From: Eledone cirrhosa
Lineage: Eukaryota
Assembly: GCA_964016885.1 (NCBI GenBank)
Contig: OZ024764.1
Coordinates: 12,400,001-12,464,000 of the forward strand
Reading direction: 5' to 3'
Length of the DNA stretch: 64,000 nucleotides
In this document: piece after piece, positions 179 through 51,635 of the stretch
Position numbering within the stretch: the stretch's first letter is position 1
How the letters are laid out: each line of letters starts with the position of its first letter
Notes under the pieces: model-generated
The model's database searches: none
What the model was told of the DNA's origin: nothing
Seen by the model: the letters and a program-made list of their open reading frames with translations, nothing else
Translations under genes and position numbers: made by a program

Positions 179-579
<401 letters not shown>

Positions 580-3438: not shown

Positions 3439-3469
<31 letters not shown>

Positions 3470-3554
3470 TGTATGTCTGCTTGTATGTATGTATGTATGT
3501 ATGTATGTATGTATGTATGTATGCATGTATGTATGTATGTATGTATGTATGTAC

Positions 3555-3585
<31 letters not shown>

Positions 3586-4032
3586 TGTATGTATGTATGC
3601 CTGTATGTATGTATGTATGTATGTATGTATGTATGCCTGTATGTATGTATGTATGTATGTATGTATGTATGTATGTATGTATGTATGTATGTATGTATGT
3701 ATGTATGTATGTATGTATGTATGTATGTCTGCCTGTATGTATGTCTGCCTGTATGTATGTATGTATGTATGTATGTATGTATGTATGTATGTATGTATGT
3801 ATGTCTGCCTGTATGTATGTATGTATGTCTGCCTGTATGTATGTATGTATGTATGTCTGCCTGTATGTATGTATGTATGTATGTCTGCCTGTATGTATGT
3901 ATGTATGTATGTATGTATGTATGTATGTATGTATGTATGTATGTATGTATGTCTGCCTGTATGTATGTATGTATGTATGTATGTATGTATGTATGTATGC
4001 CAGTCTATCTGTCTGGCTGGCTGTCTGTCTGT
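757..4032. repeat. 3.2-kb (ATGT)n microsatellite with recurring CTGCCTGT, GCAT and ACAT variant units
   Basis: Directly visible; (CTGT)n at both edges. Confidence 0.98.
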
Positions 4033-13769: not shown

Positions 13770-13920
13770 GGGGGTCTTTGATGGTGTTGGTGGTGGTGTG
13801 ATGGTGGGGCAGGGCCGAACATTTGTCACAATTCAATTACGGCTGCCCTCCAGTAAGATATTCCGACATCTTAATCGTGTTTCACATATAAACCTTTTAA
13901 CAAACCGCAGTTTAAATCTG

Positions 13921-15784
13921 TCTCTCTCACTCTCTCTCACACACCCTCTCTCTATATCATCCCCTATCTCTCTCACACACTCTCTCTCTATATTATCCCC
14001 TATCTCTCACACACACCCTCTCTCTATATCATCCCCTATCTCTCTCTCACACACCCTCTCTCTATATCATCCCCTATCTGTCTCTCACACACCCTCTCTC
14101 TATATCATCCCCTATCTCTCTCTCTATCACTCACTCTCTCTATATCATCCCCTATCTCTCTCACACACCCTCTCTCTATATCATCCCCTATCTCTCTCAC
14201 ACACTCTCTCTCTATATTATCCCCTATCTCTCACACACACCCTCTCTCTATATCATCCCCTATCTCTCTCACACACACTCTCTCTATATCATCCCCTATC
14301 TCTCTCACACACACTCTCTCTATATCATCCCCTATCTCTCTCACACACTCTCTCTCTCTATATCATCCCCTATCTCTCTCACACACTCTCTCTCTCTCTC
14401 TCTATCATCCCCTATCTCTCTCTCACACACTCTCTCTATATCATCCCCTATCTCTCTCACACACACTCTCTCTATATCATCCCCTATCTCTCTCACACAC
14501 ACTCTCTCTATATCATCCCCTATCTCTCTCTCACACACTCTCTCTATATCATCCCCTATCTCTCTCACACACTCTGTCTCTCTATATCATCCCCTATCTC
14601 TCTCTCTATCACTCACTCTCTCTATATCATCCCCTATCTCTCTCACACACACTCTCTCTATATCATCCCCTATCTCTCTCTCACACACTCTCTCTATATC
14701 ATCCCCTATCTCTCTCACACACACTCTCTCTATATCATCCCCTATCTCTCTCTCTATCACTCTCTCTCTCTATATCATCCCCTATCTTTCTCACACACAC
14801 TCTCTCTATATCATCCCCTATCTCTCTCTCACACACACTCTCTCTATATCATCCCCTATCTCTCTCTCACACTCACTCTCTCTATATCATCCCCTATCTC
14901 TCTCTCACACACACTCTCTCTATATCATCCCCTATCTCTCTCACACACACTCTCTCTATATCATCCCCTATCTCTCTCACACACACTCTCTCTATATCAT
15001 CCCCTATGTCTCTCTCTATCACTCACTCTCTCTATATCATCCCCTATCTCTCTCACACACACCCTCTCTCTATATCATCCCCTATCTCTCTATCACTCAC
15101 TCTCTCTATATCATCCCCTATCTCTCTCACACACACTCTCTCTATATCATCCCCTATCTCTCTCACACACTCTCTCTATATGTCATCCCCTATCTCTCTC
15201 ACACACACTCTCTCTATATCATCCCCTATCTCTCTCACACACTCTCTCTATATCATCCCCTATCTCTCTCTCACACACTCTCTCTATATGTCATCCCCTA
15301 TCTCTCTCTCACACACCCTCTCTCTATATCATCCCCTATCTCTCTCACACACCCTCTCTCTATATCATCCCCTATCTCTCTCACACACACTCTCTCTATA
15401 TCATCCCCTATCTCTCTCACACACACTCTCTCTATATCATCCCCTATCTCTCTCACACACACTCTCTCTATATCATCCCCTATCTCTCTCACACACTCTC
15501 TCTCTCTATATCATCCCCTATCTCTCTCACACACTCTCTCTCTCTCTCTCTATCATCCCCTATCTCTCTCACACACACTCTCTCTGTATCATCCCCTATC
15601 TCTCTCACACACACCCTCTCTCTATATCATCCCCTATCTCTCTCTCACACCCTCTCTCTATATCATCCCCTATCTCTCTCTCACACACTCTCTCTATATC
15701 ATCCCCTATCTCTCTCACACACACTCTCTCTATATGTCATCCCCTATCTCTCTCTCTATCACTCACTCTCTCTCTCTCTCTCTA

Positions 15785-15785: not shown

Positions 15786-15843
<58 letters not shown>

Positions 15844-15966
15844 GGAGGTGAGTTTTATTGTAGTACAATAAAGCAATGCAGATATCGGATAAGAAGCACT
15901 CTACAGTTTGTAGGACTGGAGTATGCATAATATAAGATCAAAAGATGGTTAAAGGAGTTCCATGTA

Positions 15967-16033
15967 TTTTATTATGCGCATTTCAAAAACAAACATCATC
16001 ATGCAATAATATTTGTGTTTTCATCAGATAAAA
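15967..16033 (-). ncRNA. Type-I hammerhead ribozyme (mirror copy)
   Basis: Reverse complement of 16154-16220. Confidence 0.8.
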
Positions 16034-16153
16034 CAGGAGAACATGATATGAAGGCTAAAAAACACTTGTGGATAGTGCAGTTTTAAATCAACATGTTGAT
16101 TTAAAACTGCACTATCCACAAGTGTTTTTTAGCCTTCATATCATGTCCTCCTG

Positions 16154-16220
16154 TTTTATCTGATGAAAACACAAATATTATTGCATGATGATGTTTGTTT
16201 TTGAAATGCGCATAATAAAA
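16154..16220 (+). ncRNA. Type-I hammerhead ribozyme
   Basis: TTTTAT-CTGATGA-[16-bp stem II, 15 pairs including 3 G-U, loop GCAT]-GAAA-TGCGCA-TA|ATAAAA; palindromic stem III; 6-bp stem I. Confidence 0.85.
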
Positions 16221-16252
16221 TACATGGAACTCCTTTAACCATCTTTTGATCT

Positions 16253-16315
<63 letters not shown>

Positions 16316-16911: not shown

Positions 16912-16998
16912 GCAAAGTTATATTTAAAATTGTTGGGTTACAACTAGTAAATATTTATAACTGATATAAAAGCACTCGACAAATATTTGGAGTATATT

Positions 16999-17166
16999 TA
17001 CAATATTAAATAAATGGAAAACTATATTTATAAAACCATATCTATTTCATTATATATATTTCGGGGATATCATATTAACAATATTGTTAATATGATATCC
17101 CCGAAATATATATAATGAAATAGATATGGTTTTATAAATATAGTTTTCCATTTATTTAATATTGTA
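16999..17166. mobile_element. 168-bp loopless palindrome centred on an HHR stem-II-like hairpin
   Basis: 84-bp arms, axis at 17082/17083; GGGGATATC...GATATCCCC is closed directly by GAAA-TATATA-TA. Confidence 0.75.
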
Positions 17167-17195
17167 TATATATATATATATATATATATAGGTAT

Positions 17196-17257: not shown

Positions 17258-17427
17258 CGAAGGAAATGTGGTAAGGAACCAGGTGGACCATAACACACCA
17301 AAGTACTCAATACTTAGGGTAGTAGAGTGGGTAATAGGAACGAGTAGGACCCCGACGGCTGAGCTCTCTGGACTCGAGAATTAGCCGTCGAAACGGCTTG
17401 AGCTCTGCCGTCGGGGTCCTACTCGTT

Positions 17428-17472
<45 letters not shown>

Positions 17473-17525
17473 CAAAGGAATTGTGGTAGCCGTCGAAACG
17501 GCTTAAGCTCTGCCGTCGGGGTCAT
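17256..17525. mobile_element. Family B fold-back element plus a short second fragment
   Basis: Homologous to 322-526; IR AGGAACGAGTAGGACCCCGACGGC...GCCGTCGGGGTCCTACTCGTTCCT; TA flanks. Confidence 0.75.
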
Positions 17526-17879: not shown

Positions 17880-18540
17880 TCATCCCTTGAATCGCAAGAA
17901 TGTGTTGCAAATTTTGAAGGTGCCAGCTATCGCAGCCATTTGTAGACTATGAATTAGGGAGCTGCGCTCTTTGTCCACAAATCCAAGTTCAGCTATACAT
18001 TGGTCCAAGGGGGTTGGTATATAACCCGTAGCTCCAATAATGATGGGTATGAAGCTAAAGGTGCATCTTGGATACTGGATTTGTAAACTCCTCATCAATG
18101 GTCCGTAGATGTCCTCCTTCTCCTGTATTTTTCTGACAACGTTTACATCAAGTGGGCAGCTGATCTCCACAACAGAACACGTTTTCAATGTGTGGTCCCA
18201 AACAACAATATTATGACGGTTGTGCTTTAATTTGGTGGCAGTTTTTATTTTCAGGTTCCACCAGTATTCCTTAGTGCCATCTGTCTCAATATATTCTTCC
18301 TTGTTTGTTTTTAATTTTGTTTTCCGAAGTGTGTTCCAGATGGTTCTAGCTATCCCATCGTGTCTCATGGGGAGGTAGTAGTGTGATGACATTCTTTCGC
18401 AGCTGGCAACAATGTGGCTTACATCTTCGATCTTTGTTTTACATAGCCTGCATTTATAGTCAGCTGATGGCCCTCCCCTTTGTGCACCAGATATGTGGTA
18501 GGGAGTTCTTGTTCCTGTATTGCATAGAGATATCCTTCAG
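17880..18540 (-). pseudogene. R4/Dong-like non-LTR retrotransposon C-terminus (CCHC finger plus restriction-like endonuclease)
   Basis: EGYLYAIQEQELPT, frameshift, then CRLCKTKIEDVSHIVASC, RHD, HNRHNIVVWD (degenerate RPD), VVEISCP, KEDIY, PIIIGATG. Confidence 0.85.
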
Positions 18541-51561: not shown

Positions 51562-51635
51562 TTTTGTCTGAAGAGGACATGTTTTGGTTCATGTTATAGA
51601 TAAAACTTTGCATTTTCGAAATATATATAATAAAA
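51562..51635 (+). ncRNA. Type-I hammerhead-like motif
   Basis: TTTTGT-CTGAAGA-GGACATG...CATTTTC-GAAA-TATATA-TA|ATAAAA. Confidence 0.65.

What the first reader, a model, noticed from the sequence alone, without database searches (positions are those of the whole stretch)
15927..16260. Loopless 334-bp palindrome with an intact hammerhead on each strand
Seen: 167-bp arms with one mismatch and no spacer. Each arm has a complete HHR pointing outward, with a 6-bp stem I, a 16-bp stem II containing three G-U pairs (pairing works on one strand only) and palindromic stem III. Inference: a recent head-to-head insertion formed through a hairpin intermediate. A transcript from either strand would fold into long dsRNA competing with the ribozyme fold, making it a possible ADAR or Dicer substrate and a cruciform site.
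Basis: partly seen in the sequence, partly recalled or inferred. Interest (0 to 1): 0.75.

Follow-up and report, generated by a model that had tools for sequence, protein, structure and literature searches.

The report
Penelope stub joined at RNA start
This palindrome is one of about 2,000 near-identical stubs of a Penelope-type jumping gene, likely made when both ends of a cut in a TA repeat each prime a copy of the element's RNA and both copies run off its predicted capped start, which would settle which RNA strand these elements copy.

Summary
The palindrome and both hammerhead motifs are real, but stem II carries a C·U mismatch and the insertion is larger (15840-16260): the left arm has an extra 87-nt 'tail'. 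It is a 5'-truncated copy of a Hydra-clade Penelope-like element (PLE). About 16,000 ribozyme copies and about 2,000 palindromes with this centre exist genome-wide. Inverted PLE ends, tails and opposed hammerheads are published. The copies argue against a hairpin intermediate: 66 of 69 resolved insertions have one tailed and one tail-less end, and in 36 of 66 neither arm can be a copy of the other. Arms stop at one site (49 of 130), often behind an untemplated G, which suggests a capped RNA start. Copies on a second pass read through that site (37 of 38), so full-length copies likely use a multimeric or circular RNA. Compensatory changes across sister families support the ribozyme fold. Cleavage, expression, editing and small RNAs are untested. 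The scan reached the twin-priming/RNA-start reading before, on other PLE families in this genome.

The parts
15788..15839 (.). (TA)26 left target repeat
   Evidence: 101 of 109 tailed ends sampled abut (TA)n
15840..15926 (-). 87-nt 'tail' between end A and end B; in tandem copies it runs on into the ORF leader
   Evidence: B-to-ORF junction has 327 copies
15840..16093 (-). Tailed (B) arm: 3' part of the pLTR from the start site to end B
   Evidence: 99.2% to L032 reference 3731-3476
15965..16035 (-). Type I hammerhead motif of the left arm; predicted cut after 15973 on the - strand
   Evidence: mirror of the + copy
16092..16095 (.). Centre: both arms meet at the predicted RNA start, here with a short AT overlap
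16094..16260 (+). Tail-less (A) arm: pLTR from the start site to end A
   Evidence: 98.2% to L032 reference 3476-3643
16152..16222 (+). Type I hammerhead motif: stem I 16152-16159/16215-16222, core 16160-16166, stem II 16167-16182/16187-16202 with C·U at pair 4, GAAA 16203-16206, palindromic stem III 16206-16213, predicted cut after 16214
16258..16311 (.). (TA)27 right target repeat

Best explanation
This is a 421-bp, 5'-truncated insertion of a Hydra-clade Penelope-like retrotransposon, likely made by twin priming: both ends of a break in (TA)n would each prime a cDNA on the sense RNA, one at site A and one at site B 87 nt downstream, and both cDNAs would run off the RNA's predicted capped 5' end and be joined head to head. 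Shown: family, anatomy, two fixed ends, the one-A-one-B rule, the stop site, shared arm haplotypes. Inferred: priming order, sense-strand template, cap, end-joining. The hammerheads are passengers copied uncut from the pLTR; the stub has no ORF and likely cannot move again, because the sequence downstream of B is replaced by (TA)n.
For: Long copies with the same ends hold an 821-aa stop-to-stop ORF in the hammerhead's sense; its AlphaFold model (pLDDT 81.7) ranks telomerase RTs first. Of 101 (TA)n-flanked B ends: 66 B-A insertions, 6 B-B rows (3 insertions), 20 without partner found, 9 unresolved. A arm further 5' in 36, B arm in 8, equal in 22 of 66. 49 of 130 arm 5' ends lie at reference 3459-3478, also when the partner stops elsewhere (11 of 66). 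Genome-wide 4329 arms begin there with a non-template base at -1, against 161-292 raw matches, mostly point variants, at three other ATA-starting positions. G stands at -1 in 2124 of 4329; in untemplated fillers the last base is G in 11 of 30, inner bases in 7 of 92, p=4e-4; G at -1 in 5 of 40 junctions at the cut site (read by eye). Arms agree at polymorphic sites in 1105 of 1141 cells, 803 expected if independent. In vitro, a PLE protein cuts and extends both strands and starts RT at two internal sites that bound the tail, on uncleaved RNA (PMC11167929).
Against: No RNA data: cap and start are inferred from DNA junctions. G precedes ATA in 6 of 12 non-C cases in the partner strand, so the raw 49% alone proves nothing; the filler count is small and its rows are not all independent. 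The start site overlaps a 6-bp palindrome CATATG, which could favour joining there. Later deletions in unstable palindromes can distort arm lengths. 29 of 101 B ends were not resolved. The window's own mismatch sits at a family polymorphism (T 20, C 6), which fits two templates or later conversion rather than one RNA. The sample comes from the first 50 Mb of contig C1 and was drawn by B ends, so A-A insertions were not counted.
Confidence: 0.68

Rival explanations
1. Hairpin (fold-back) intermediate: one cDNA, or an antisense RNA, folds back on itself and is copied, and the endonuclease trims one arm to end A. 2013.
For: Published interpretation of PLE inverted junctions (PMC3846280 discussion). 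Arms nearly always share one haplotype. Symmetric fillers such as CATG and the CATATG palindrome at the centre fit a snap-back. 22 of 66 insertions have equal arms.
Against: It requires the A arm to be contained in the B arm; the reverse holds in 36 of 66, against 8. Several copies have a full A arm and a B arm of under 90 nt (L057, L077, L100, L113). The stronger palindrome ATGCGCAT draws only 2 of 130 arm ends.
Confidence: 0.15
2. Twin priming is right, but the centre is a pause or processing site rather than a capped start.
For: About half of first-pass arms read through the site (47 of 96; 5261 read-through matches). A weak predicted stem (-10.4 kcal/mol for 130 nt) begins near it.
Against: Second-pass arms cross the same sequence in 37 of 38 cases (p=2e-8), so the sequence itself does not stop RT. 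The untemplated G is position-specific. D. virilis Penelope starts transcription inside its pLTR (PMC2377424).
Confidence: 0.1
3. The short palindromes are a self-propagating non-autonomous family (MITE- or retrozyme-like) copied from one another.
For: About 2,000 copies of similar size; PLE-derived retrozymes are reported (bioRxiv 10.64898/2026.07.22.740005 abstract).
Against: Centres are diverse and look re-made at each insertion. Arm lengths form a continuum up to full units. Short and long copies share the same ends and variants. No tandem monomers here.
Confidence: 0.05
4. Sequencing or assembly fold-back artefact.
For: Loopless palindromes are a known long-read artefact (own knowledge). 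This locus was not spanned by an independent record.
Against: Asymmetric fixed ends, a mismatch between arms, fillers at centres, thousands of loci, and a public contig bridging a centre.
Confidence: 0.02

Closest known systems
Hydra clade of C-terminal EN+ Penelope-like elements (Craig et al. 2021, PMC8557442; abstract, passages, section 11 and supplement rows seen), incl. Hydra-1_Obim
   Same: DKT and RW motifs, YRDD, CxCx5C linker, C-terminal GIY-YIG-like region without internal CxxC, terminal CxxC/CxH, hammerhead in the pLTR, (TA)n target; inverted 5'-truncated copy and one-sided tail as drawn for PLEs.
   Different: Unit is 3.7 kb, not under 3 kb; the tail is 87 nt, not 30-40; an Asn-rich insert precedes the linker; its hammerhead differs from that listed for Hydra-1_oBim, so it is another family.
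Poseidon PAc of Anolis in vitro (Frangieh et al. 2024, PMC11167929; parts 1-2 of 4 read)
   Same: Two RT start sites bounding the tail, AT-rich target, both strands extended, uncleaved RNA as template.
   Different: In the parts read it does not link the two sites to opposite ends of one insertion or address inverted junctions; here both sites lie upstream of the ORF, in AU-rich context.
Minimal PLE hammerheads (Cervera and de la Pena 2014, PMC4209133; parts 1-2 of 4 read)
   Same: Type I motif in the pLTR, long helix II, palindromic helix III, pairs of motifs 100-700 bp apart on opposite strands already noted in Schistosoma; low activity, likely dimeric.
   Different: No G10.1-C11.1 pair and no extra base after A9; a C·Y mismatch at stem II pair 4 is conserved across sister families.
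Penelope inverted pLTR palindromes of Adineta vaga (Arkhipova et al. 2013, PMC3846280; passages and discussion read)
   Same: Head-to-head inverted pLTRs, optional tail, palindromes at the junction, Asn-rich ORF inserts.
   Different: Interpreted there as self-priming on an antisense template and left open; the copies here favour two primings on the sense RNA.
LINE-1 twin priming and 5' extra G from the cap (recalled, not read)
   Same: Two target ends prime on RNA; inversion; untemplated G at the RNA start.
   Different: In L1 the inverted part is a different stretch of the RNA; here both arms copy the same stretch from fixed start sites.

Membership tests
EN+ Penelope-like element | Single ORF with telomerase-like RT | tested here: met
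   821-aa ORF in L032; fold search ranks TERT structures 1-5, E about 3e-7, TM 0.26-0.33. Pfam does not hit P0001; 1 of 17 aligned relatives hits RVT_1 weakly.
EN+ Penelope-like element | C-terminal GIY-YIG endonuclease | tested here: inconclusive
   Motifs LIYEC..YFGST, FKARLYNH, LCLNEK, INRR align with relatives and by eye with published Hydra proteins; 1 of 17 hits Pfam GIY-YIG at E 0.0012; the domain was not folded and searched alone.
EN+ Penelope-like element | pLTRs, partial tandems, inverted 5'-truncated copy, one-sided tail | tested here: met
EN+ Penelope-like element | Hammerhead motif in the pLTR, sense to the ORF | tested here: met
Hydra clade | DKT, RW(K), CxCx5C linker, no CCHH, flanking CxxC/CxH | tested here: met
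   SDKTNN, LRWT, CNCRIKNKC, CNLC, CLH in P0001 against section 11
Hydra clade | (TA)n insertion preference | tested here: met
   101 of 109 B ends; A ends likewise
Hydra clade | Generally under 3 kb (typical, not strict) | tested here: not met
   unit 3731 bp
Hydra clade | Placement in the RT tree with reference Hydra elements | not tested
   No tree with reference sequences was built; only motif comparison by eye.
Type I hammerhead ribozyme | Core CUGANGA / GAAA / NUH with three helices | tested here: met
   N7 varies, as expected
Type I hammerhead ribozyme | Covariation in helices | tested here: met
   Within the family 0 two-sided changes in 45 variants, 97.3% cells paired, no better than shuffles. 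Across sister families two-sided changes at stem II pairs 2, 3, 6, 8, 9, 10 (rows were selected by core and stem I pattern).
Type I hammerhead ribozyme | G10.1-C11.1 closing pair | tested here: not met
   A-U in 57 and G-U in 13 of 70 variants
Type I hammerhead ribozyme | Self-cleavage | not testable with these tools
   Genomic proxy inconclusive: arm starts at the cut about 1.5-fold above two neighbouring positions (counted by eye).
Non-LTR retrozyme | Tandem 150-450-nt monomers each with a hammerhead | tested here: not met
   two inverted arms, no tandem monomers

The most novel reading that the evidence does not exclude
These stubs record two RNA templates of one PLE. A capped linear transcript, primed near its 5' end, yields dead palindromes. 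A template with no 5' end in the pLTR, namely a hammerhead-cut and re-ligated 3.7-kb circle, yields all more-than-unit copies. That would give the PLE hammerhead its missing role and explain why pLTRs arise. Support: 49 of 96 first-pass arms stop at the start site, but 1 of 38 second-pass arms. A multimeric read-through transcript or template jumps explain this equally well.
Probability: 0.3. Interest if true: 0.75.

Novelty: new member of a known kind. Interest (0 to 1): 0.42.

Why it matters
The locus itself is ordinary for this genome. Its family matters because how PLEs build their inverted ends, and which RNA strand they copy, is stated as open in PMC3846280 and PMC8557442. Thousands of young copies give base-level predictions: the RNA start, two priming sites, one per target end, and a second template class for full-length copies. 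All can be tested with 5' RACE, RNase R and an in vitro system that already exists for another PLE. About 2,000 perfect 170-bp hairpins are also a possible large dsRNA source if transcribed through, which is untested.

Tried and rejected
Rfam: no match at gathering score; weak miRNA hits reflect only the hairpin. DNA search of the own genome found nothing because common words are skipped; pattern searches replaced it. Pfam and PDB sequence searches did not recognise the ORF. No RNA holder listed among public runs: no evidence either way. A Hi-C run of another organism laid 0 reads; runs X5, X6, X7, X9 hold arm pieces, but no listed piece bridges the centre by 31 letters on both sides. The empty allele was not sought, because both flanks are repeats. 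Arms beginning at the predicted cut: 40 of the first 100 of 211 matches are junctions, against 36 of 100 of 161 at +5 and about 16 of 100 of 292 at -3 (by eye): no clear peak. Fossil A-to-I edits: A>G 3 vs T>C 5 in shared changes and 10 vs 15 in single-arm changes, 46 pairs: none seen. The first arm-comparison (second half) had over-long segments and was redone; the fold returned nothing and was redone. In one search, three loci gave no alignment and were dropped; only 12 tandem loci had 1.5 kb downstream to confirm that they continue into the ORF. Literature searches for PLE twin priming or cap-derived bases returned nothing relevant in the listings; subscription papers and bioRxiv supplements could not be seen and may bear on novelty. 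An earlier-findings look-up by sequence returned nothing.

Full report
Observation. The palindrome is as described: 167-bp arms, centre 16093|16094, one mismatch. Each arm holds an outward-pointing type I hammerhead motif with a predicted cut after 16214. Stem II has a C·U mismatch at pair 4 and closes with A-U; the palindromic stem III is not formed in a monomer. Rfam does not detect it. In a transcript across the whole insertion the long duplex wins completely.

Family. The window is G000:C25:12400001-12464000 in a 3.0-Gb genome. A 25-mer of the core has 15,994 matches, mostly listed as outward-facing pairs either about 150 bp or 1-5 kb apart. The long pairs enclose an ORF in the hammerhead's sense. 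Its model resembles telomerase RTs most, and it carries the Hydra-clade motifs of Craig et al. 2021. The unit is 3731 bp and its end runs into its start in 327 tandem junctions.

True extent. The left flank 15840-15926 is element sequence, a tail found at one end only. The insertion is 15840-16260, between (TA)26 and (TA)27. The family has two fixed ends: A, 45 nt after the predicted cut, and B, 87 nt further on.

End rule. I sampled 109 B ends, mostly from loci fetched at places listed; 101 abut (TA)n. Of these, 66 pair with an inverted A end, 6 rows (3 insertions) with another B end, 20 had no partner found and 9 were unresolved. In the 66, the A arm reaches more than 15 nt further 5' in 36, the B arm in 8, and they are equal in 22. 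A fold-back of a B-primed cDNA, or of an antisense RNA, makes A a subset of B, and an A-primed cDNA has no tail to copy. Two separate primings fit best (inference). Later deletion could blur this but should not favour long A arms 36 to 8. Arms of one insertion share variants (1105 of 1141 cells, 803 expected; median 1.5 differences against 9 between insertions), so both come from one source. The window's own mismatch is at a polymorphic site.

The centre. 49 of 130 arm 5' ends lie at one site. 2010 palindromes join there with varied fillers; the window's exact centre is 1 of the 50 listed. 4329 arms begin there behind a non-template base, and 2124 of them behind G. Microhomology explains part of this, since G precedes ATA in half of the partner-strand cases. 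But in untemplated fillers the last base is G in 11 of 30, against 7 of 92 inner bases, and junctions at the cut site show G in 5 of 40 (by eye). A C added opposite a cap is the simplest cause (inference; the LINE-1 precedent is recalled). D. virilis Penelope starts transcription inside its pLTR (PMC2377424).

Second template. Copies that read through B into the ORF have passed the pLTR twice. Of 66 such junctions, 38 reach the start site: 37 pass it and 1 stops 4 nt short, against 49 of 96 first-pass arms. So the sequence itself does not stop RT, and more-than-unit copies come from an RNA with no 5' end there: a multimer, a template jump, or the circle proposed in PMC4209133.

Ribozyme. Within the family all common stem changes keep pairing through G-U, with no two-sided change. 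Sister families show two-sided changes at six stem II pairs, keep the C·Y mismatch at pair 4 and keep a self-complementary stem III. The fold is therefore likely under selection in the active element. Activity is not shown; arm starts at the cut are only about 1.5-fold above neighbours. The arms here were copied across an intact cut site, in line with uncleaved RNA being the main template in vitro.

What is known. Inverted truncated copies and tails, opposed hammerheads 100-700 bp apart and two RT start sites are published. The origin of head-to-head junctions was ascribed to antisense self-priming and left open. My searches found no paper giving twin priming or cap-derived G for PLEs, within a library that lacks most subscription papers. 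Earlier notes of this scan reached the same reading on other families in this genome. I looked them up after recording my own reading; they are not independent evidence.

Verdict. Real; an ordinary product of an abundant new Hydra-type PLE family; mechanistically informative in bulk. Interest 0.42.

Noticed in passing
window 16960-17172: Second loopless palindrome (arms 16993-17082/17083-17172) from a sister PLE family with the same one-sided tail, centred inside hammerhead stem II.
   Followed up: partly
window 401-527 and 17331-17435, partial copy near 17487: Hairpins of one further repeat family beside (TA)n; arms differ in length between the two copies.
   Followed up: no
window 16388, 18942(-), 28137, 32689, 44223, 50160, 51568: Further hammerhead-like cores of several other families; the one at 51568 resembles the sister families in its stem I and III.
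   Followed up: partly
window 17880-18536 (-): 218-aa frame with a CCHC knuckle and a PD-(D/E)xK-like stretch, likely the C-terminus of an RLE-type non-LTR retrotransposon (motif names recalled).
   Followed up: no
L032 ORF residues about 602-677: Low-confidence Asn/Pro-rich insert before the CxCx5C linker, absent from most relatives; similar inserts are reported in rotifer PLEs.
   Followed up: no
G000 arms listed: Recurrent 8-nt duplication of the start (ATATGTTG twice), as if the cDNA end slips back on the RNA; and arms whose start joins (TA)n directly, with or without a G.
   Followed up: no
B arms: 13 of 66 B arms stop within the tail or at site A, as if blocked by an A-primed hybrid on the same RNA.
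   Followed up: no
runs X4-X20: Related sequence is held by runs of 15 other coded organisms; those laid (X4, X6, X7, X9) show arm pieces, so the family extends to relatives.
   Followed up: partly
window 13780-15780: 2-kb array of a 36-40-bp CT-rich minisatellite directly left of the insertion.
   Followed up: no
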